NCBI GenBank assembly: GCA_003144275.1
Contig: NJBF01000007.1
Span: forward strand, 64,668-96,667
Direction of reading: 5' to 3'
Length of the DNA: 32,000 nucleotides
DNA from: Candidatus Heimdallarchaeota archaeon B3_Heim
Lineage (GTDB): Archaea > Asgardarchaeota > Heimdallarchaeia > Hodarchaeales > Hodarchaeaceae
Below are positions 22,127-32,000 of the stretch, piece after piece. The notes beneath the pieces are model-generated. The model did not search any database and was not told the origin of the DNA. It saw only the letters and a list, made by a program, of their open reading frames with translations. Within the stretch, counting starts at the first letter, position 1, and every line of letters starts with the position of its first letter. The translations under genes and the position numbers were made by a program.

Positions 22127-22215
22127 AAAGATTTAAGGGAATTGATTTAATATACTTACGTGTCTCCTTTTTCCAAAAATTCAATCATTCTCGATTGAAG
22201 GAGTCAAGAAAATTA

Positions 22216-22992
22216 ATGGTTCTTCTCAAAGCGGTCTATTTCATTACTGATGAAGGATTTAACATTTATAGTCAATCCTTTGAGTCAACGGATCGAGACC
22301 AAGATATGGTTAGCAGTCTAATATTAGCATTACAAACATTCGGGAAGGAAGTTATGTCTGAAAATGTTTTACAAACAGTGGGCTTTAGAGGTGCTCAAGA
22401 TGAAGATAACGAGGGGAAAGATATAGAAGGAACACGAATGATTCTTGAACAAGGGGATAGAGTAAACGCTATTTGCTTTGGAATTCTGGATAAGGATAAT
22501 ACGGAACGAGACGAATACAAGTTACGTGGACAACTGCGCGTAATTATAAAAGAAGTCGAAGGGCAATACGCAGAAGAATTAAAAGACCCCATCTTCAGAA
22601 AAAACGCTTTCACAGGATTAGAAACGCTCATCAATACCCGTTTCTTCCGTGACAAAATGTCTCGTATCTACAAGCAGCAATACGCTAGTTTAAATGAATA
22701 TTTAAAATATCCAAGATCCCTCCTATTCGAACTGACGCCAAGAGGAATAAAAACCTACAATTTCTACCGTGACTTTCCAGAAGTTCAACAAAAAATGAAA
22801 ATTATTGCTGTAGAAGAGTTAGATGGCCTTATTGATGATATAGAGGAACGGAGTAGTATGATATCCTTTCAAGATTGTATTGAACGCTTTGGAACTGATC
22901 GAAGCGGGGAAGTTTTTGAATTGCTGAAATTGCTGACAAGAAAGGGGGTATTTGACGCGTATAACTTTGAACGAGTGAGTATCACCGCGTAA
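22216..22992 (+). CDS. Longin-like N-terminal domain protein with C-terminal winged-helix-like region
   Basis: LKAVYFITDEGFNIYSQSF...DQDMVSSLILALQTFGKEV fits the first-longin-domain pattern (beta-beta-G-beta, then a helix ending ALxxF); C-terminal EVFELLKLLTRKGVF. Confidence 0.65.
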   Translation: MVLLKAVYFITDEGFNIYSQSFESTDRDQDMVSSLILALQTFGKEVMSENVLQTVGFRGAQDEDNEGKDIEGTRMILEQGDRVNAICFGILDKDNTERDEYKLRGQLRVIIKEVEGQYAEELKDPIFRKNAFTGLETLINTRFFRDKMSRIYKQQYASLNEYLKYPRSLLFELTPRGIKTYNFYRDFPEVQQKMKIIAVEELDGLIDDIEERSSMISFQDCIERFGTDRSGEVFELLKLLTRKGVFDAYNFERVSITA

Positions 22993-23005: not shown

Positions 23006-23881
23006 TTATGATCCCCTCATATCCCTCGATGCCTTTAAGATAAGTGCAGTTGTTTTCTTGCTCTCCTTCTCCATTCCATCAATTACCGAAATCAACTTAG
23101 TATCGACAGCTAAATTAATTTCATTCTTTATAACTTCAGGTAATTGAGCAACGGACTGATTTAATCTCTCTACTACTTGAGAGAATCTTTGAATACTACC
23201 ATCTTGCACCACAAGTCGCTCGGTGACAGAGGTTTTAAGCTCATTGACGGAATTTTCTAGATTTATGTTAATATGATCACGTAGGGAGGCTAATTCAACT
23301 TGGATTATCGCACTCACCCTATCTCGAAGATCAGCCACTGTTGCCAGTTGATCAGTCTGATTTTCGATCAAAGAATTTAGATTACTTTCCATCGTTTTTA
23401 AGTCATCAGAGATTGAGACGAAACTATTAATGCTCACTTCATACTGATTACTTGTTTTTTCGGTGGAATTATGAACCATAGTGGTTAAACTCTCTGATAA
23501 TACCTTCATCCGTCCCACAACATCATCGACATATCCAGCTTTTATAGTATTAAGATCTTCTTCAATTTTCCTCTCTGTAGATTTGAAATTAGTCTCCAGT
23601 TCATTTAATGATGACTCCAGTGTGGCAAGAACAGGTGGTAGTTGAGCGATAGAGGCGAGAAGTTCTGGATTGAGTCCCTCATAGGACTCCTGCACATGTC
23701 GAATAATGGTTCGAGCAGATTCTTGGAATTTTTCATCAATCGCCAAGGCGACATCAGAAAAATTACGAATGGAGGTTTCAAGTTCTTGTCGGATTTGAGA
23801 AACATCCTGACTCTGTTGAAGCATTTGAAAGATCTTTATATTTACGTCATATATTAGTTTCAGGCTTTCTTCGATTCCCAA
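23006..23881 (-). CDS. All-helical coiled-coil protein (291 aa)
   Basis: Near-continuous heptad/amphipathic periodicity, no Trp or Cys, few Pro and Gly; TTG start with GAGTGA/GTGAG upstream. Confidence 0.8.
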   Translation of the reverse strand: MGIEESLKLIYDVNIKIFQMLQQSQDVSQIRQELETSIRNFSDVALAIDEKFQESARTIIRHVQESYEGLNPELLASIAQLPPVLATLESSLNELETNFKSTERKIEEDLNTIKAGYVDDVVGRMKVLSESLTTMVHNSTEKTSNQYEVSINSFVSISDDLKTMESNLNSLIENQTDQLATVADLRDRVSAIIQVELASLRDHININLENSVNELKTSVTERLVVQDGSIQRFSQVVERLNQSVAQLPEVIKNEINLAVDTKLISVIDGMEKESKKTTALILKASRDMRGS

Positions 23882-24038
23882 GTTCTCACTTCACTCTTCT
23901 ATCCCAATATTGTTTAGGAACAGATTGTGATTAATTTTACTAAAGGTGTATCTACAATAAGTTTTCTATTTATGATTGCACTAAGAAGAAATATAAATCC
24001 ATATTAGTGTGAGAAATAAGTATAAACCGTAGTAGATT

Positions 24039-25046
24039 TCATTTAAGTCGCCGTAGTAATACAATAAACCGATCATTCTGCAAAATAGCATCATTTAATC
24101 GATGAATTAACACAATGGTTTCTGAATACACGAATTGTCTGAAATCATTTCCTCTAGCAAGCTGAAATTCTTTTTGGATGTCTTTCACAACGGAAAAGGA
24201 TACATTTGGAATCCTAGATTCTAAATCACCTGGTCCTAGATTATATTGCTGGAGGACTGAAGTACTGATGCGTATTGTGTCCTGCAAAGTACGATTCCCA
24301 TTGAGATAGTCTGATGTATTTGATATATATTTTTTAATGATGTTTTGAATAATTAATTCTTCTGAAGCATCCAATTCTATCTTACTCTGTAATGGGAACA
24401 TCTTTTTTAAGTTCTGCAATAATCTCGCTGCAGGTGCTTCTCGTAGAAGCTTAAAAATCAAATCTTTAATTTTTATACATGGAAACTGTATGACTTCATG
24501 AGAATTAGGATGTGGAATCTCTTGTGTTAGAGCATATCTTTGAATTTCTTTACACCCATGGAGATAAAAAGTGGGGAATGCGAGATTGGATAAATTTGCA
24601 TAAGAATTCATTAGTGCTTCAACGGATTCAATTATACCCCATTTATCAATTAGACTTTCATACCTATTGAAACCTTTAATTATTTCTTTATTCTTTTCTA
24701 CTAGGGTGGAAGTATCATCAAATTGTTCGGTTTGATCGTTAGTATCAGATACTCCAATAATTTCAGTAAGTTTGAGATCTAATTTTTCTACAAGATCTAT
24801 AAAAACGGGTTTTGCTTCTTTTAACGTTAACAAATTTGGCAAAGCTGAATGAACTGTTCTTAGTTCCTTGTACAATCCATCAGGGATATTTTCTCGGTCA
24901 CTGATATACGAGCTGAGTGTAATAATCAAATTCAAACTGGTTAGATTTAAATTGATTAGGAAATCTAATTTGTTCTCTAGCACTTCAAGAGGTCTCTGAT
25001 TGGAAGAATGACCTTCTGGGGGATGTTGATCTTCATTAAAATTCAT
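24039..25046 (-). CDS. Hypothetical alpha-helical protein directly downstream of the tubulin-like gene
   Basis: 335-aa ORF starting 43 bp after the tubulin stop, with GAGGT SD; no recognised family. Confidence 0.8.
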   Translation of the reverse strand: MNFNEDQHPPEGHSSNQRPLEVLENKLDFLINLNLTSLNLIITLSSYISDRENIPDGLYKELRTVHSALPNLLTLKEAKPVFIDLVEKLDLKLTEIIGVSDTNDQTEQFDDTSTLVEKNKEIIKGFNRYESLIDKWGIIESVEALMNSYANLSNLAFPTFYLHGCKEIQRYALTQEIPHPNSHEVIQFPCIKIKDLIFKLLREAPAARLLQNLKKMFPLQSKIELDASEELIIQNIIKKYISNTSDYLNGNRTLQDTIRISTSVLQQYNLGPGDLESRIPNVSFSVVKDIQKEFQLARGNDFRQFVYSETIVLIHRLNDAILQNDRFIVLLRRLK

Positions 25047-25089
25047 AGTGATAATCTACCTCTTTACCTATCTATTCACATGATTTATA

Positions 25090-26469
25090 TCATTTATTTG
25101 CCTGGGTTTGTTCAGGTGTAATATAGTAACCAAACAATTTTTCGAGATCGCTTACAGCATCCTCTAATTCTTGTTTTGTTGTACCTTTTGAGCGTTTAAA
25201 CCAGTGTTGTTTCAATTCTGAATCACCACTGTGTAAACGTATCAACGATTTTGCTTCTTCTAATATATCATATAATTCTGGTATTCGTGGTAGGCCGAAC
25301 AACAACAAAAGAGAGGCTCGTGCTTTCTCATCATCATAAGCACAATAAGTTGGGGAAATACTTGCACCTTTAGCCAAAAAAGGACTAAGAGCTTTTTTCA
25401 ATAATGGATCAAATTCAACTCGTGCAATTTCTTTAGGTCCACTCAATACGGAAAATACTGATGAAGCAGCGGGGTTTGTTCCCATATTAGTTAAACTGCA
25501 ATGTGCAGCAGTATATTCAACTGCTGCGGCTAATTGATTCCCTACATCTCCTACTTCAGGGAAAATGGATAAATCATCAAACATCGCTGGAACAACCACA
25601 CTATCCAATTTGAGTGCGAAATCTCCGATATCTGTTGTAGGTAAGACCTCTTTACCTAGTTCAGGTACTCCTGGTGAGAGCATTTCTGCAATAGATTCAA
25701 GTGCTAGCGGATTTACAAGTTCAACAAATGCTTCTTCCATCTGAACGGGAAGAGGGGTGTTTGTTTGGCCTAAAACATTTGGTCTGGTCACATTACTATC
25801 TAATGCTGTAAGATCCAGGCCTTTCTCCCGTGTTATTAAATCAGCCGCTTCTCCCCTTTGCATACTTAATACACGACTCAACATAGTATTATTTGAAAGG
25901 AGTAGGATTAGATCGGGACCCATGTTTCCTTCCTCTAATTGTAATCGAAGGAGTTTAGATAAAGCCCATACGCTGTTCACAGCTTCAGATGATTGGTTTA
26001 CGAAAGGTAAAACTCCGAATACATAGATGAAAATTTTTCGCTTCTCTTGCTCTGCAAACCTTTTTCGCAATAAGCGAATTAAGGCAGGAGTGCCTCCACA
26101 ACCTGTTCCTCCTCCAAAGCTTGTGAAAATGCAAAAACCACTGATTCCTTCATAGCCTAATGCCTGCAATTGATTTAAAATTATATCTTCAGAGTCAATA
26201 ACTGATTCATAACCAGCAGAGAATTTTCCACCCACGCCAATTTCTGCATCAGAATAAAGCAGGGTACGCTTCGATGAAATAGAGTACTTTTTTCTCGCTT
26301 TTAATAGATCTCCCCTATCGGTATTCATCACTAAATATTCACGAATACGCGTAGGGAGTTCTCCTTTCTCAGATTTCGCCAAATAGCTACCTACCAGGTT
26401 GCTCCCGCATTCTCCAATTCCGATTGCGAATACAGATGCTTCTGATCCTTCTAATTTTACATCAGACAT
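25090..26469 (-). CDS. Tubulin/FtsZ-superfamily GTPase with a tubulin-like C-terminal helical hairpin
   Basis: GIGECGSN, MNTD, GVGG, signature GGGTGCGG, VLPF, EAVNS, LSNN, LVNPL, T7 loop TTDIGDF and C-terminal HWFKRSKGTTKQELEDAVSDLEKLFGYY; GGTGA SD at 26477-26481. Confidence 0.93.
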   Translation of the reverse strand: MSDVKLEGSEASVFAIGIGECGSNLVGSYLAKSEKGELPTRIREYLVMNTDRGDLLKARKKYSISSKRTLLYSDAEIGVGGKFSAGYESVIDSEDIILNQLQALGYEGISGFCIFTSFGGGTGCGGTPALIRLLRKRFAEQEKRKIFIYVFGVLPFVNQSSEAVNSVWALSKLLRLQLEEGNMGPDLILLLSNNTMLSRVLSMQRGEAADLITREKGLDLTALDSNVTRPNVLGQTNTPLPVQMEEAFVELVNPLALESIAEMLSPGVPELGKEVLPTTDIGDFALKLDSVVVPAMFDDLSIFPEVGDVGNQLAAAVEYTAAHCSLTNMGTNPAASSVFSVLSGPKEIARVEFDPLLKKALSPFLAKGASISPTYCAYDDEKARASLLLLFGLPRIPELYDILEEAKSLIRLHSGDSELKQHWFKRSKGTTKQELEDAVSDLEKLFGYYITPEQTQANK

Positions 26470-26686
26470 ATTTTAATCACCATCATCCTTACTTATAACA
26501 ATATTATCGTTGTGGTATCAAATTGAGGAAAATAATGTTGTTTTTTTCAGCAAAGAAACTCATTCAGCTTAGTGTTATTACTAAATTTGATAAATGTTTT
26601 GAAACCTTTTCTTTACCCAATTCCATCAAGCAGGCATTAAAAATTCAAATATTATGAGAATAAGATCACTGAAAACTATTTCTTCA

Positions 26687-29600
26687 TTATTTGCTAAATA
26701 TCTTTTCTATCTGTCGAATTGGTAATTTTGAAGGTCGTAAAACCCTTGGAATATTCCTATCATGATCAAGGAATTGTGTAAGGTATCTGAATCCACTACT
26801 CTTTAATGATTTCCTTTGATCATTGGTTAAAGAGGAGATATATTCTGTGTATACACCAATCATTACGTATTCTATTGTTTCATTTGATAGATTACCTTTT
26901 AATGAATAGATATTAGGTCTGTATTTTTGCAGTTTTAATTCAAAACCCGACCTATCTTTGATACCCCACTTCGCTTGAACTTTCTCCCATACATACTGGG
27001 GATATTCACGATGTCTAAAATCCTTTATCCTCTTCTTATTAAACAGAGTTGTAACGAAATCATCAAAATTACCAGAACTCAATAAGTGATCGCGATATCC
27101 TAAAGCATTCCACCTATCACTGTTTTTAACCATATACACCTTTTTGTGCTCTTTGGGTAAAAAAGTGTCAGTTGTCAGATCCACAATTAATCCTCTTGGT
27201 GTACCCCTGTTTTTTGGAGTAAGAACTTCTATCTGCTCAGTACATTCGAACCAATATCGCTGAAAAGCCAACCGACTACTTAAATTTCCTAGATTTCGTT
27301 TTAATTTTGAATACAACTGTGGTTCAAGAAGTTCAAGCAAGAGATTTCCTTTTGGTGGTAGAATAAATGCCAAATTCGGGATTTCTTGATCATCAGATAT
27401 TTCTTTCAATATCCTCAATTGACTCCGATCCCATTTAGGCCCTGATTTCAGTTTTTTATTTATGGAATCAAGAAAATTTTCAAATGAACCTAGTTTTTTC
27501 ACATCAAATTTTTGATTTTTGCTTGTGAATCTCTCATTTAAGGCATACAATGAAGGACGGAAGAGATTTGGTTGTAGTACAATTTTATCCTGAACTTGTT
27601 TTCTGATTTGTTCCCAAACGTGATTGGGAAAAGCAGAATTGTCACCAAAATCCCTTTGTGTTGACGTTTTTCTGAAACACAGATTTACAAAATCATCGAA
27701 TTGCCGTTCCGTCAAAAATTTGTCACTGTAGCCGCGAATATTCCATCTATTGCTATTTTTAATTAAAAACATTGTACGATGTTCTCTAGGTAAAAAAGTA
27801 TCAGAAGTCATATCAATGATAAATCCTCTTGGACCATTCTTATATCTTCTATCAATTACCTTTGACACTCCTGTACATTCATTCCAAAAATCACGAAATA
27901 ATGGTTTCTCTTCCAACTGTCTCTGGATTAATTCCAATGATGTGGTAGGATCTTTAGCTTGTTTATTCATATTTATGTCAAGAGATCGTATAGAATCAAG
28001 ATTGATCTTATTTTCCTTATAATTTTGAATTAAATTTGCCTCTATCCCTGAATTTACGCCTCCAATCTCCGCATTGTTATTTTGAAAATGTACCCTGAAG
28101 TTTTCAATGATATTAACAACTAATTCTGCTGGATTGTCAGCCCATATATTCTGAAGCTGTTTTAGCATATTCTTCTCATCTTCTCTGTAAGATTGAGGAG
28201 TCTTGCTAAGATAATCTAATGCTTTTTCAAAAGCTTCTTCACCAGTATATCCAGCATCATAAGCTAGTCTGAGTGCGCTAAAGAGTTCTCCAAATTTACT
28301 AATACCTTCAGTATTATCCCAAATACCAATAGTAATGATTCCGACATTGTTTTGTGTCAGATTTGGATGGGATTTCATGTCATACACACTTGTTAAATCC
28401 ACACCATTAATGAGATGTATAGTAATGTTCTCAAAATTGTCTGATTTTCCGAAAAACGATTTAAATTGGTCATATATAACTAGTTCTTTTTTATTTTGGT
28501 CAAAACACTTGCCTAAATCCTTGATTTGAACATTTATTGGTTTATGCGTATGAATCTTCAAATCTGAATAAGCTATATTTGTTGCACCAGAATTAACTCT
28601 CTCAAATCCAGATGGGGTGCATTCTGTGTCACTAGAAAATTTATGCCCGAAGTAATTATTTAATGCATTTAACACATTTTTATTCTCAAAAAAGGCTTCT
28701 AGTATTGCATTGATTCCATAAGTGTTATTCTCACTCATTAGATGAGCAATACTATCAAAATTTATGTAACGAGTAGCTCTAGCCTCATTCACGCCCCACA
28801 TTAATCCATCAATTGCCTTAGATTGAAGAATTTCGTTATCAATGATCCAAGACCGATATATCCTGTTTATGGCATAATTGGTGGTAGTTCCTTTTATCTC
28901 ATCCATTGCATCTAGAAAGCGTGCAAACGCCCTTCCCTTGTTTACTACCCTAATAATGAACTTTTGACCTATATAATTGGGATCTACGATAGTTGGATAA
29001 ACGCCTGTGGCTTTTTTTTTCATGAATTGTAGTAAGTTATTGTATCCCCATTGTTTCATATTTCTCCTCCCAATTCGGTCTAAACCATGATAATACTTCC
29101 AAAATATTCCTGTTAAAGCATGTTCGATGTTTTCTCTTGTGTACTCGTGTTTCAAAGCAAACAATGCGGGTCTTTTCGTGGTTTTCAGAGCGATATCTTT
29201 CTTGAATACCCTCTGGAACTCTCTCCACACATTATTCATTTTTTTCTGGTAGGTAAAGTCCTTTACATTTTCAAAATCCGAAAATGATGCTCGCTTTCCA
29301 AATAGCGTATCTATAAATTCTCTAATATTCTTGCTATGCAATTCTCGTTTTGTTGGTGCTAGTGTATTCCAAGTATACGTATTTCTAGCAAGGTATATTC
29401 TCCGCATACTTGCTGGAAGCTCTTGTTCTTTTGATAAATCTAATAAAAACAGTTTCCGACCCTGTTCTGTTGGTTTCATCTGGTTTATTCCTTCAAACCA
29501 TAACCGTTGCCATTCTAATCTAAAATTCCCTAATTTCTGATTATCTATAAGTTTATCATACAATCGTCGATCTAGTATCTCCACTGATTTGTTCCCATCT

Positions 29601-30295
29601 CCCTTGTATACAAAGGCAATATTGGGATAAGAACCATCAGTATTAAGGGTGTTAAGGTAAGTATATGTTTTGGTATCTAACTCACGTCCTGCTTGCAGTT
29701 GTGTGTTTAGTTCTTTAATTAACGTATTTATATCTTGAATTTCTTTGACTTGTTCTGTTTTTTGCTCTAATCTCTCATCTAATGAAATTTTTACTTTTTC
29801 CTCCTTATGAGTGGTGGATTGATCTCCTGTATCTGTTTCCCTGATTATTGTTTGATCATTGTAATCCTCATGTGTTAATACCAGTTTTCTCATCAATGTA
29901 TTTTCTTCTTCCTCCTCCTTACTGTCCTCCTCTCCTTTCTGTCCTGTTTCTCTGTTTAACTCTCTTTCTGTCTCATTCTCCTTTATTTCTAACCCATCTT
30001 CAGCTTCTTTTTCCTTTTGTTCACATAATTGTTTCTGATTTTGTTCTTTTAGGTTATTAAATGAAATTTCCTCAATTTTATCCTCCTCTACTACTAACTG
30101 ATCGGGGTAATTTTCTATCGCCGCAAGTATTTGTGAATCTCCTGTATTTTCATTATTGATTACGATTTGATCATTGTATGGTTCCTCTGCTAGCAATTTT
30201 TCCTCTATTTCATTGAGTGTTTCCCTCCGATCCTCCGTTTGTTCTTCTGAGTGTTCCTCCCTTTGCTTCCACTTCATATTCTCTTCTGATGACAA
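26687..30295 (-). CDS. 1202-aa multidomain protein: acidic N-terminus, three copies of an unrecognised domain, central PD-(D/E)xK-like motif
   Basis: Internal repeats at aa 190-425, 798-920 (partial) and 939-1176; SDLKIH-x6-VQIK at aa 577-592. Confidence 0.85.
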   Translation of the reverse strand: MSSEENMKWKQREEHSEEQTEDRRETLNEIEEKLLAEEPYNDQIVINNENTGDSQILAAIENYPDQLVVEEDKIEEISFNNLKEQNQKQLCEQKEKEAEDGLEIKENETERELNRETGQKGEEDSKEEEEENTLMRKLVLTHEDYNDQTIIRETDTGDQSTTHKEEKVKISLDERLEQKTEQVKEIQDINTLIKELNTQLQAGRELDTKTYTYLNTLNTDGSYPNIAFVYKGDGNKSVEILDRRLYDKLIDNQKLGNFRLEWQRLWFEGINQMKPTEQGRKLFLLDLSKEQELPASMRRIYLARNTYTWNTLAPTKRELHSKNIREFIDTLFGKRASFSDFENVKDFTYQKKMNNVWREFQRVFKKDIALKTTKRPALFALKHEYTRENIEHALTGIFWKYYHGLDRIGRRNMKQWGYNNLLQFMKKKATGVYPTIVDPNYIGQKFIIRVVNKGRAFARFLDAMDEIKGTTTNYAINRIYRSWIIDNEILQSKAIDGLMWGVNEARATRYINFDSIAHLMSENNTYGINAILEAFFENKNVLNALNNYFGHKFSSDTECTPSGFERVNSGATNIAYSDLKIHTHKPINVQIKDLGKCFDQNKKELVIYDQFKSFFGKSDNFENITIHLINGVDLTSVYDMKSHPNLTQNNVGIITIGIWDNTEGISKFGELFSALRLAYDAGYTGEEAFEKALDYLSKTPQSYREDEKNMLKQLQNIWADNPAELVVNIIENFRVHFQNNNAEIGGVNSGIEANLIQNYKENKINLDSIRSLDINMNKQAKDPTTSLELIQRQLEEKPLFRDFWNECTGVSKVIDRRYKNGPRGFIIDMTSDTFLPREHRTMFLIKNSNRWNIRGYSDKFLTERQFDDFVNLCFRKTSTQRDFGDNSAFPNHVWEQIRKQVQDKIVLQPNLFRPSLYALNERFTSKNQKFDVKKLGSFENFLDSINKKLKSGPKWDRSQLRILKEISDDQEIPNLAFILPPKGNLLLELLEPQLYSKLKRNLGNLSSRLAFQRYWFECTEQIEVLTPKNRGTPRGLIVDLTTDTFLPKEHKKVYMVKNSDRWNALGYRDHLLSSGNFDDFVTTLFNKKRIKDFRHREYPQYVWEKVQAKWGIKDRSGFELKLQKYRPNIYSLKGNLSNETIEYVMIGVYTEYISSLTNDQRKSLKSSGFRYLTQFLDHDRNIPRVLRPSKLPIRQIEKIFSK
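26768..29728 (-). repeat. Three diverged intragenic domain repeats (29728-29021, 27904-27536, 27481-26768)
   Basis: WQRLWFEG/FRDFWNEC/FQRYWFEC; LLDLSKEQELP/IIDMTSDTFLP/IVDLTTDTFLP; RNTYTWN/KNSNRWN/KNSDRWN; VWRE/VWEQ/VWEK; RPALFAL/RPSLYAL/RPNIYSL. Confidence 0.9.
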
Positions 30296-30738
30296 CTTCT
30301 TATCTCTCCTCGATTTCTCCCTCTGGAAGTGAATATTTATTCTACTATGGATTGTTTCTTTACCTTAAATACTCACAAAAAAAGTTGTGTATTTTTGACT
30401 CTTAAAGAATACGGTTTTATACAGGCAATTCTATTGAACAATGGACTTAGTATTAAATTTCACGACTAAGGACTGGAACAGTGGTGATATAATTTTTCAT
30501 ATATCAATAGATCTTCGACAGGAGAACAAAAAATATAATTACTCTAGGGGATTCAATAGATCCTGTTTTGATTTCTAAGAATTTTCACTTCTTTAATATA
30601 AAAGGAGGAATTAGCTTCTATAATACAAATGATCCTGAGCAACTGAATGATCTAAGATTGCATTATTTTCATGGGGGAATGGCGAGAGGGCAAAAATTTC
30701 GCTTTCTGTCTCTTCCATTGTCATTTCTGATCCACCTA

Positions 30739-32000
30739 TTATTTTAACACCATGCCAGATTTAATTTCAATAAATAATTTCATCACTAATGATAAATACG
30801 CTCCAATGACCTTGTTATGGGGATAAGTCTCCATAATCTTCTTGGATATCTCTTTAAATTGTCTTTTATTCTCTTCACTGTTATCTGTGGGTAAGTAGCG
30901 GGCACGAAACATTCGAAAAGCACTATGCCATCGATTTAATTGAATAGACACCTTTTCCCACTCCTCCCGCTGGCTTTCAATTCTCGGGAAAAGATCTAAT
31001 ATATATCGTAAATCATGTGAATTCAATAAGTCTGCTCGATCTTCAATCAATTTTGACAAAGGATATATTTTCTCCGATGCTTCATCGGAATACTTTTTGA
31101 AAACCTCTTGAATGTTTGAATAATAGTCTAAAATCCCTAATTTGGTCTGTAAATTCGCATTTAGATCTTTTTCAAATACTTTCATTATTTCAACTACAAC
31201 AGCCCTTACTTGACTTAGTCTGATAATTGCCTGAGTCAAATGATGGACATTATTAGTGGTAGCAATTCGTTGGAAATCACTTAAATAGCCAAAGTCAATT
31301 CGGTCATCTGTTCGTATGTCAATCTGAAAAGAAGCGAATAAATACTCAATTGTGTCTTGGATCTCTGCAATATATCGCTCTCCAGTTGTACGAATTGTAT
31401 TACATGCATTATTATCATTTTGTAACTTATCTATTTCCACAAAGACCTCAGTAATCTCTCTCAGATGGACATCTTCCTGATGTTTAACTATGACTTGTGA
31501 AAAAGCTTCAATATATCCTCCAACAAACTCAATTATATTGATACCTACTTCTTTGAGGTCATTAACATTTTTTAGGACTTTTCGTGATTCTGAGACTCCA
31601 TGGGATAATAAAACAGCAATAATTTCTGTATCATAGAAATATATCAATTCCCTCAGATTATGGGCTAACCTCTCATGAGAAACTTCTTCTGGTTCAAAAT
31701 TGTAGATTTTTTGTTCTGCTGCAAAAACACTATCACTGAGTGGAGAGATTTCATGAATTCGAGGAAGACTTACTCTTAACCAATTATAGAGATTCTGGTG
31801 TAATTTTGTAAGAGAATCCTTGGCTAATTGCATGCTTTCGAGACTGTAACTTTCATAACTATCAACTAAACGTACGATATCTTTGTGTGTTTTTATTTCC
31901 TCTAATTTTTTCTTCATCAGCCCAAGTGGTTCTTCGAAAAATGCAGAATATTGAGGGGGGAGTTTGGAATAATCCTGTATATTCGATGTTATTTCTCGAT
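30739..32000 (-). CDS. Large alpha-helical hypothetical protein, 5' end outside the window
   Basis: The frame stays open upstream of ATG 31917 to the window edge (REITSNIQDYSKLPPQYSAFFEEPLGL-MKKK...), so the 392-aa ORF is only the C-terminal part. Confidence 0.75.
   Translation of the reverse strand, partial: REITSNIQDYSKLPPQYSAFFEEPLGLMKKKLEEIKTHKDIVRLVDSYESYSLESMQLAKDSLTKLHQNLYNWLRVSLPRIHEISPLSDSVFAAEQKIYNFEPEEVSHERLAHNLRELIYFYDTEIIAVLLSHGVSESRKVLKNVNDLKEVGINIIEFVGGYIEAFSQVIVKHQEDVHLREITEVFVEIDKLQNDNNACNTIRTTGERYIAEIQDTIEYLFASFQIDIRTDDRIDFGYLSDFQRIATTNNVHHLTQAIIRLSQVRAVVVEIMKVFEKDLNANLQTKLGILDYYSNIQEVFKKYSDEASEKIYPLSKLIEDRADLLNSHDLRYILDLFPRIESQREEWEKVSIQLNRWHSAFRMFRARYLPTDNSEENKRQFKEISKKIMETYPHNKVIGAYLSLVMKLFIEIKSGMVLK

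What the first reader, a model, noticed from the sequence alone, without database searches (positions are those of the whole stretch)
23006..26469. Candidate tubulin operon with two uncharacterised helical partners
Seen: three co-oriented genes: tubulin-like, then a 43-bp gap with GAGGT SD, a 335-aa helical protein, a 157-bp gap, and a 291-aa near-continuous coiled coil. Known: prokaryotic tubulin-family genes are often encoded beside their accessory factors (BtubC, TubR/TubY). Inference: these may be an undescribed filament-binding or anchoring module. The 157-bp gap could hold a separate promoter, so the third gene is less firmly linked.
Basis: inference. Interest (0 to 1): 0.68.

Follow-up and report, generated by a model that had tools for sequence, protein, structure and literature searches.

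The report
Asgard tubulin-like operon, partners re-assigned
The three genes are real, but the conserved unit in Asgard archaea is a different trio: a giant helical rod protein, the tubulin-like GTPase and the 335-aa helical protein; here a selfish DNA insert cuts off the rod gene, and the 291-aa protein is a single-genus add-on.

Summary
Observation confirmed. Three co-oriented minus-strand genes of 459, 335 and 291 aa are separated by 43 bp (with GAGGT) and 157 bp.

Interpretation partly supported. The 459-aa protein is an intact tubulin/FtsZ-superfamily GTPase. It is closest to archaeal CetZ and probably belongs to the published but untested "Asg.Tub" group.

The 335-aa protein (P2) is a genuine partner.
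- It lies directly downstream of the tubulin-like gene in every Asgard family sampled.
- It co-occurs with that gene in 121 of 128 positive genomes out of 400, and is not found in families that lack it.

The 291-aa protein (P3) occurs only in one Hodarchaeales genus. It sits behind a conserved TATA-like box, so its link is weak.

In all 35 other loci examined it abuts the tubulin-like gene upstream. Here a 4.3-kb insert carrying a 1202-aa ORF separates the two genes and replaces the tubulin gene's first codons. The window also ends inside Big.

Big and P2 match no Pfam family and no solved fold above noise.

Most likely this is a three-part filament module (polymer, rod-like scaffold, adaptor). 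The roles are inferred, not shown.

This scan has already reported the same trio from other genomes. New here are the split operon, the status of P3, and a Big-Tub duplication.

The parts
30739..32000 (-). 3' part (last 419 codons) of 'Big', the 1173-aa all-helical rod protein; the gene runs off the window (whole gene = L038:9407-12928, minus strand)
   Evidence: Its homologue abuts the tubulin-like gene in all 35 other loci. An AlphaFold2 model of an 896-aa orthologue has pLDDT 86 and is all long helices. The protein has internal repeats.
30687..30722 (-). Stranded original start of the tubulin-like gene (12 codons, MTMEETESEIFA), 14 nt after Big's stop codon
   Evidence: Comparison with the uninterrupted locus of a relative whose tubulin-like protein is 96% identical, L037.
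26470..30686 (-). About 4.2-kb insert carrying a 1202-aa orphan ORF (30295..26687) plus the 217-bp region now upstream of the tubulin-like gene. The insert also supplies the gene's new first ~14 codons, so its true 3' edge lies a few codons inside 26469..26428
   Evidence: Absent from every other locus, including the closest relative G013. The ORF has no Pfam or NCBIfam family.
25090..26469 (-). Tubulin/FtsZ-superfamily GTPase, CetZ-like (probable Asg.Tub), 459 aa, with a chimeric N-terminus
   Evidence: PF00091 at 61.2 bits. Family profile against PDB: CetZ1 4b46 at 1e-13, ahead of beta-tubulin at 4.5e-7. The G-box GGGTGCGG and the T7-like T-D-x-G-D-F motif are invariant.
25047..25089 (-). 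43-bp spacer with GAGGT 11 nt before the P2 start
24039..25046 (-). P2, the 335-aa helical partner conserved across the phylum: a variable N-terminal helical part and a conserved C-terminal domain (residues 120-335)
   Evidence: Adjacent to the tubulin-like gene in all families sampled. Co-occurs with it in 400 genomes. AlphaFold2 model. No known fold or family.
23882..24038 (-). 157-bp spacer with a genus-conserved TATA-like box (about 23935-23945) and a purine-rich stretch before the TTG start
23006..23881 (-). P3, a 291-aa helix-rich acidic protein restricted to one Hodarchaeales genus, with a nearly invariant core at residues 165-225

Best explanation
The window holds a disrupted copy of an Asgard-wide three-gene cytoskeletal module with the gene order Big, Tub, P2. 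Big is an elongated rod of antiparallel helical bundles. Tub is a CetZ-like tubulin-superfamily GTPase. P2 is a small helical protein with a conserved C-terminal domain. Proposed mechanism: Tub polymerises with GTP into protofilaments. Big binds along or between filaments as a scaffold, cross-linker or ruler, much as EzrA, MAP65/PRC1 or spectrin-type rods do for other filaments. P2 acts as a stoichiometric adaptor or assembly regulator. P3 is a late accessory or mere neighbour specific to one Hodarchaeales genus, probably with its own promoter. In this genome a selfish 4.3-kb insert landed 12 codons into Tub, supplied a substitute start, and cut Tub-P2-P3 off from Big and its promoter. Shown here: gene order, conservation, co-occurrence, co-phylogeny, intact GTPase motifs and helical architectures. 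Inferred: polymerisation, physical binding and the role of each partner.
For: Synteny: Big-Tub-P2 occurs in the same order in all 35 loci from 9 families. Spacers are mostly under 45 bp or the genes overlap, while all other flanking genes differ between families. Co-occurrence in the same 400 Asgard genomes: Tub in 126 and P2 in 123, with both in 121. The 7 discordant genomes are mostly gene fragments at contig ends, and neither gene occurs in families lacking the other, for example 0 of 135 in f20. The Tub and Big trees show the same family-level clades, and a Big-Tub pair was duplicated as a block inside Hodarchaeales. Tub keeps the T1 motif G-E-C-G-S-N, the G-box GGGTGCGG and a T7-like T-D-x-G-D-F that aligns to the same motif in CetZ 3zid; 84 columns are invariant across families. 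The Big model has pLDDT 86 and pTM 0.39, consists of helices of about 40 residues, and the protein has internal repeats (hhalign probability 97%). The Big family has only 48 representatives among 1.84 billion proteins. The P2 C-domain has pLDDT above 90 and invariant E-A-P-x-A-R-L-L and G-x-x-x-L-E-x-R motifs. The insert junctions were read directly.
Against: No fused Tub-partner proteins were found (weak evidence). Big's fold matches are generic helix bundles: best Z 11.8 to a designed 5-helix bundle, and EzrA at Z 9.0 with rmsd 9.9 A. The scaffold role therefore rests on shape alone. None of the proteins has a transmembrane segment, so no membrane anchor is evident. The Hodarchaeales paralogous Big-Tub pair lacks P2, so P2 is not indispensable to every Tub. 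P3's linkage rests only on adjacency within one genus.
Confidence: 0.68

Rival explanations
1. Big and P2 are folding or assembly cofactors (chaperone-like, as tubulin cofactors A-E and prefoldin are for tubulin). On this view they handle Tub monomers and are not stable parts of the filament.
For: Partners encoded in strict 1:1:1 gene order also fit obligate handling factors. P2 begins with a helical-bundle segment, and Big is a large all-helical protein, as tubulin cofactors A and D broadly are (the comparison itself rests on general knowledge). The partners evolve much faster than Tub: 42-51% identity for P2 and 60-71% for Big's C-terminal part, against 81-84% for Tub within the genus.
Against: There is no sequence or fold match to TBCA, TBCD, prefoldin or any chaperone. 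Prokaryotic tubulin-family proteins studied so far fold without dedicated cofactors (general knowledge).
Confidence: 0.12
2. Only the tubulin-like gene matters, and the neighbours are conserved by descent without a shared function. This remains a live option for P3 in particular.
For: Within the genus the whole region is syntenic (longin-like gene, NTP transferase, RING, RAP, PAC2), so adjacency of P3 is uninformative. P3 has a conserved TATA-like box of its own and is absent outside the genus.
Against: For Big and P2 this is excluded. Adjacency survives across 9 families in which every other neighbour has changed. Presence and absence are tightly coupled, and the Tub and Big trees are congruent.
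Confidence: 0.15
3. The module is a TubZ/PhuZ-type DNA-segregation system of a plasmid, virus or integrated element.
For: Tubulin-family genes with small partner genes are typical of such systems. Language-model features also place TubZ-like and viral clusters near Tub (scores 0.91-0.93). A selfish insert sits in the locus.
Against: The module is a single chromosomal copy in a stable housekeeping context. Its inheritance follows family-level taxonomy. No DNA-binding domain of the TubR winged-helix type occurs in any partner. The insert is unique to this genome and targets the gene rather than carrying it.
Confidence: 0.03

Closest known systems
Asg.Tub, the 'CetZ-like group in Asgardarchaeota' of Santana-Molina, del Saz-Navarro and Devos 2023 (PMC9871819)
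   Same: An Asgard-only tubulin-superfamily clade that sits between CetZ and tubulins. Its C-terminus matches no other family. Its neighbours were described as unknown, mostly coiled-coil genes. My profile ranking agrees: CetZ first, then tubulins, with only the N-domain aligned.
   Different: The paper calls the genome contexts 'unknown and unrelated' and does not describe a conserved Big-Tub-P2 cassette. I could not check accession numbers, so identity of the two groups is probable, not proven.
Archaeal CetZ (H. volcanii CetZ1/CetZ2, PDB 4b46/4b45; M. thermophila 3zid)
   Same: Best sequence matches in PDB (1e-13, 9e-8 and 2e-8). T1, G-box and T7 motifs are shared. The nearest protein-atlas clusters carry CetZ_C.
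   Different: The Pfam CetZ_C domain is not detected. Only residues 15-175 align significantly. Published CetZ neighbourhoods (type IV pili, cofactor biosynthesis; PMC9856176) are unrelated to this trio.
BtubA/B-BtubC and TubZ-TubR-TubY operons
   Same: A tubulin-family polymer encoded beside its dedicated accessory proteins.
   Different: There is one tubulin-like gene, not a heterodimer pair. No TPR/kinesin-light-chain-like partner and no winged-helix DNA-binding partner were detected.
EzrA (FtsZ regulator built of spectrin-like repeats) and MAP65/PRC1-type rod-shaped filament cross-linkers
   Same: Big is a long chain of antiparallel helical bundles encoded with a tubulin-family polymer. 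EzrA appears among the structural matches (Z 9.0), and P3 has a sub-threshold Pfam EzrA hit (20.1 bits).
   Different: The matches are at noise level for helical proteins (rmsd 9.9 A for EzrA; PRC1 at Z 6.1 with rmsd 24 A). There is no transmembrane anchor and no sequence homology.

Membership tests
Tubulin/FtsZ superfamily | Tubulin/FtsZ GTPase domain (Pfam PF00091) above the curated cut-off | tested here: met
   61.2 bits against a cut-off of 33, residues 13-173; 63.8 bits in the genome search.
Tubulin/FtsZ superfamily | Glycine-rich nucleotide-binding signature (GGGTGSG type) and a T7 loop with acidic residues for polymer-dependent GTP hydrolysis | tested here: met
   GGGTGCGG is invariant in 18 sequences from 9 families. 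T279-D280-x-x-D283-F is invariant or nearly so, and aligns to T-D-L-G-D-F of CetZ 3zid. Catalysis itself was not tested.
CetZ family (sensu stricto) | CetZ-type C-terminal domain (Pfam CetZ_C PF21011) | tested here: not met
   No CetZ_C hit at E up to 1. The PDB CetZ alignments cover only the N-terminal domain with significance.
CetZ family (sensu stricto) | Placement inside the canonical CetZ clade in a phylogeny with FtsZ, CetZ and tubulin references | not tested
   No reference sequences could be brought in by reference. The literature places Asg.Tub outside canonical CetZ at an unstable position (PMC9871819).
Eukaryote-type tubulins (alpha/beta/gamma, BtubA/B, OdinTubulin, AtubA/B) | Full-length similarity including the Tubulin_C domain (PF03953) | tested here: not met
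   No Tubulin_C hit. Tubulin matches are at 4.5e-7 or weaker and limited to about residues 70-200.
Asg.Tub three-gene module (Big-Tub-P2), as seen here and in earlier reports of this scan | Tub flanked upstream by the rod protein and downstream by P2, on the same strand | tested here: met
   P2 follows after 43 bp. Big lies upstream but is separated by the 4.2-kb insert, and the original junction (14 nt between Big's stop and the old Tub start) is still readable.
BtubC / TubR-TubY type accessory proteins | TPR (kinesin-light-chain-like) repeats, or a winged-helix DNA-binding partner | tested here: not met
   No such Pfam or NCBIfam domains in Big, P2 or P3.
EzrA | Pfam EzrA (PF06160) above cut-off and an N-terminal transmembrane anchor | tested here: not met
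   P3 scores 20.1 bits against a cut-off of 39.6. No hydrophobic segment reaches 1.6 on a 19-residue Kyte-Doolittle window in any of the proteins.
gamma-tubulin complex proteins (GCP/Spc97-98) | GRIP1/GRIP2 helical domains | tested here: inconclusive
   No Pfam GCP hit. The only structural trace is a human gamma-TuRC chain (7as4_H) at Z 6.2 over 80 residues, which is within noise. Single domains were not folded separately.

The most novel reading that the evidence does not exclude
Big-Tub-P2 is a self-contained Asgard-specific cytomotive filament system. On this reading a CetZ/tubulin-intermediate polymer has two dedicated binding proteins of previously unseen folds: a rod-like filament-associated protein and an adaptor. 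That would be a prokaryotic forerunner, by analogy, of the tubulin-plus-MAP organisation. In Hodarchaeales it has been elaborated further by a block duplication of Big-Tub and by the lineage-specific additions P3 and the 311-aa protein beside the paralogue.
Probability: 0.35. Interest if true: 0.8.

Novelty: new variant of a known kind. Interest (0 to 1): 0.6.

Why it matters
[quoted passage not shown] Eukaryote-type Asgard tubulins occur in only about 1% of genomes (PMC13394414). This CetZ-like family, with its two fixed partners, is present in about a third of the Asgard genomes sampled here. That includes Hodarchaeales, which now has cultured strains (bioRxiv 10.1101/2025.02.26.640444). The trio therefore gives a concrete, small and testable candidate for an Asgard tubulin-family cytoskeleton. 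For this genome specifically, the operon is split by a selfish element that rebuilt the gene's 5' end. That amounts to a natural test of whether Tub-P2 can be expressed apart from Big.

Tried and rejected
1. Pfam and NCBIfam scans of Big, P2, P3 and the 1202-aa ORF found nothing above cut-off.
2. A P2 profile against PDB sequences gave a best E of 0.3.
3. P2 model: Foldseek best E 0.21 and VIA best Z 7.6, on the low-confidence N-terminal helices only. The atlas structure search used a poor model and gave TM 0.31 or less.
4. Big model: Foldseek best E 0.047. VIA wide and second-look searches returned only generic bundles. I looked for GCP/gamma-TuRC, PRC1, EzrA, spectrin, vinculin/talin and tubulin cofactor D. 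Those that appear at all are at noise level.
5. I asked whether P2, P3 or the paralogue's 311-aa neighbour are pieces of Big or related to each other. hhalign gave probability 26% or less for every pair.
6. A search for fused Tub-partner proteins found none (weak evidence).
7. A search for transmembrane segments found none.
8. Other neighbours are lineage-specific and unrelated in function. These include an ADP-forming acyl-CoA synthetase-like gene, a WD40 protein, CDC48, a MoCF gene and Arf- or Rag-like GTPases.
9. The sigma-70 promoter scan was not used, because the organism is an archaeon.
Full report
OBSERVATION

The minus strand carries three consecutive ORFs:
- 26469..25090, 459 aa, called Tub here.
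- 25046..24039, 335 aa, called P2.
- 23881..23006, 291 aa with a TTG start, called P3.

The spacers are 43 bp and 157 bp. GAGGT sits 11 nt before the P2 start. The P3 TTG start is supported by an N-terminus that is invariant in eight orthologues. All three genes have conserved homologues in other genomes. The description is therefore correct and is not a chance pattern.

THE TUBULIN-LIKE PROTEIN

Tub hits Pfam Tubulin/FtsZ at 61.2 bits against a cut-off of 33, and hits neither Tubulin_C, FtsZ_C nor CetZ_C.

A profile of 18 family members from nine Asgard families was searched against PDB:

| Match | E-value |
|---|---|
| CetZ1 (4b46) | 1e-13 |
| CetZ (3zid) | 2e-8 |
| CetZ2 (4b45) | 9e-8 |
| beta-tubulin | 4.5e-7 |
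| OdinTubulin | 1.3e-6 |

Only the N-terminal domain aligns in these matches. Language-model features also place Tub nearest to CetZ clusters (0.94).

The family is strongly conserved. Hodarchaeales and Thor-type members are 53-56% identical, with 84 invariant columns. The invariant columns include the T1 motif G-E-C-G-S-N, the G-box GGGTGCGG, and a T-D-x-G-D-F motif that aligns with the same motif of CetZ 3zid, which is the T7 position. Tub therefore has what a GTP-dependent polymer needs.

Source names identify the organism as Hodarchaeales, within Asgard. The family fits the "Asg.Tub" CetZ-like group named by Santana-Molina et al. 2023. That paper described its neighbours only as unknown, mostly coiled-coil genes in unrelated contexts (PMC9871819). 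I could not compare accessions, so the identification is probable rather than proven. I found no bench work on the family, and no description of a conserved cassette, in the searchable papers.

THE REAL OPERON

I compared the locus with 15 loci from the same order. In every other genome a large gene lies immediately upstream of Tub. This includes a relative whose Tub is 96% identical. The window holds only the last 392-419 codons of that gene, at 30739..32000. Extending the contig gives the complete gene: 1173 aa, all helical, called Big here.

Between Big and Tub this genome alone carries about 4.2 kb with a 1202-aa orphan ORF. The junctions can be read directly:
- The old Tub start (12 codons, 14 nt after Big's stop) is stranded at 30722..30687.
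- The present gene begins with about 14 substitute codons.
- Homology to the uninterrupted relative resumes at the A-I-G-I-G-E-C-G motif.

An earlier report of this scan on the insert reached the same junction (e1-5444889). I had seen the displacement independently.

PHYLUM-WIDE TEST

Tub is present in 126 of 400 sampled Asgard genomes. These lie in nine families, including a large Thor-type family, and Tub was not found in the others, for example 0 of 135 in f20.

I fetched 20 further loci from seven more families and classified all ORFs with iterated profile searches. Every locus has Big (870-1310 aa), then Tub (440-465 aa), then P2 (290-380 aa), on one strand. Spacers are mostly under 45 bp or the genes overlap. 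The genes beyond the trio differ from family to family.

A P2 profile searched over the same 400 genomes finds P2 in 123 genomes, as a single copy, and with few exceptions directly beside Tub. Both genes are present in 121 genomes. Five genomes have Tub only, mostly as fragments at contig ends (G330 has a near-full-length gene on what may be a short contig). Two have P2 only, and one of those has a Tub fragment. No family has one gene without the other.

The Tub and Big trees recover the same family-level clades. Both place a second Hodarchaeales Big-Tub pair (about 55% identical) inside the Hodarchaeales clade. This indicates a duplication of the pair as a block. That paralogous pair lacks P2 and P3, and is instead preceded by an unrelated 311-aa acidic protein.

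THE PARTNERS

Big:
- It has no Pfam or NCBIfam family.
- Only 48 representatives match its profile among 1.84 billion proteins.
- It has conserved N-terminal (about 360 aa) and C-terminal (about 540 aa) parts. A variable, repeat-expanded middle is present in Hodarchaeales.
- It contains internal repeats (hhalign self-match, probability 97%).
- The AlphaFold2 model of an 896-aa orthologue has pLDDT 86 but pTM 0.39. It is built wholly of helices of about 40 residues in antiparallel bundles, that is, an elongated rod.
- Structure searches return only generic helix bundles. EzrA, PRC1, vinculin and a gamma-TuRC chain appear only at noise level.

P2:
- It has a variable N-terminal helical segment and a confidently modelled C-terminal helical domain (pLDDT above 90).
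- It carries invariant motifs and a conserved C-terminal end.
- No sequence or fold match rises above noise.

P3:
- It is acidic and helix-rich, with a nearly invariant core at residues 165-225.
- It is found only in one Hodarchaeales genus: 20 of 22 genomes there and 0 of 378 elsewhere.
- All 127 homologues among 5.8 billion proteins are close relatives, and the locus tags of named ones sit two genes from Tub.
- In the sister family the gene after P2 is a DUF790 protein instead.
- The P2-P3 spacer holds a genus-conserved TATA-like box about 59 nt before the start, and a purine-rich stretch next to it. P3 probably has its own promoter.

Big, P2 and P3 are not detectably related to one another. 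None has a transmembrane segment, and all are acidic.

INTERPRETATION

The best reading is a three-component filament module. Tub is the GTP-driven polymer. Big is a rod-like scaffold or cross-linker. P2 is an adaptor or regulator. P3 is a late, weakly linked addition.

The module itself is shown by synteny, co-occurrence and co-phylogeny. The individual roles are inferred from motif conservation and shape only. No binding was tested, multimer modelling was unavailable, and no fused forms were found.

Three rivals remain:
- Big and P2 may be assembly cofactors rather than filament components. This cannot be excluded.
- The neighbours may be conserved by descent without shared function. This is excluded for Big and P2 but open for P3.
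- The module may be a TubZ-like DNA-partition system. This is unlikely, given the chromosomal, vertically inherited context and the absence of a DNA-binding partner.

STANDING OF THE FINDING

The idea needs two corrections. The main partner, Big, lies upstream and is split off here by a selfish insert. P3 is genus-specific.

Earlier reports of this scan on other genomes reached the same three-gene reading (e1-5649291, e1-5541051, e1-5454709, e1-2514607). I saw those reports only after my own synteny result. The trio is therefore not new to the scan, though I found no paper describing it.

Specific to this window are four things: the broken operon with a rebuilt 5' end, the characterisation of P3 and its promoter-like box, the duplication of Big-Tub as a block in Hodarchaeales, and the genome-by-genome co-occurrence count.

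Noticed in passing
window 26470-30722 (ORF 30295..26687): A 4.2-kb insert with a 1202-aa orphan ORF sits 12 codons into the tubulin-like gene. It supplies a substitute 5' end whose sequence resembles the displaced one (S-E-A-S-V-F-A against T-E-S-E-I-F-A), much like a homing element that carries a flanking exon copy. The stranded old start reads on into a short ORF of about 37 codons.
   Followed up: partly
L024:9327-13747, L031:3551-9320, L032, L035 and L036 (other genomes of the genus; not found in this genome): A second Big-Tub pair, about 55% identical to the first, occurs in at least 9 genomes of the genus. It has no P2 or P3. It is preceded by an unrelated acidic 311-aa orphan and followed, convergently, by a 725-740-aa RagA/Gtr1-like GTPase protein.
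   Followed up: partly
L038:16492-17427 (G000:C96, just beyond the window's end): A 311-aa Arf-family small GTPase with a C-terminal extension of about 130 aa lies three genes upstream of Big. It is conserved at that position in the genus.
   Followed up: no
L025:5884-6738; proteins P0200, P0206, P0276 and P0279: Some P3 orthologues end in a short zinc-ribbon (Pfam PF13240; C-P-Q-C-G motif) that the window's P3 lacks.
   Followed up: no
G387:C69:11301-21918: In one Thor-type genome Tub and P2 lie 8 kb apart on the same strand. This may be another insertion into the operon, at the Tub-P2 junction.
   Followed up: no
window 22195-22992 (+): The convergent 265-aa gene downstream of P3 has no Pfam family and is conserved in the genus. 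Another first-stage note reads it as a longin-like protein.
   Followed up: no
L060:10358-10969 (family f12): In family f12 a 203-aa coiled-coil plus winged-helix protein lies convergent to P2. It has sub-threshold intermediate-filament and HTH_27 hits.
   Followed up: no
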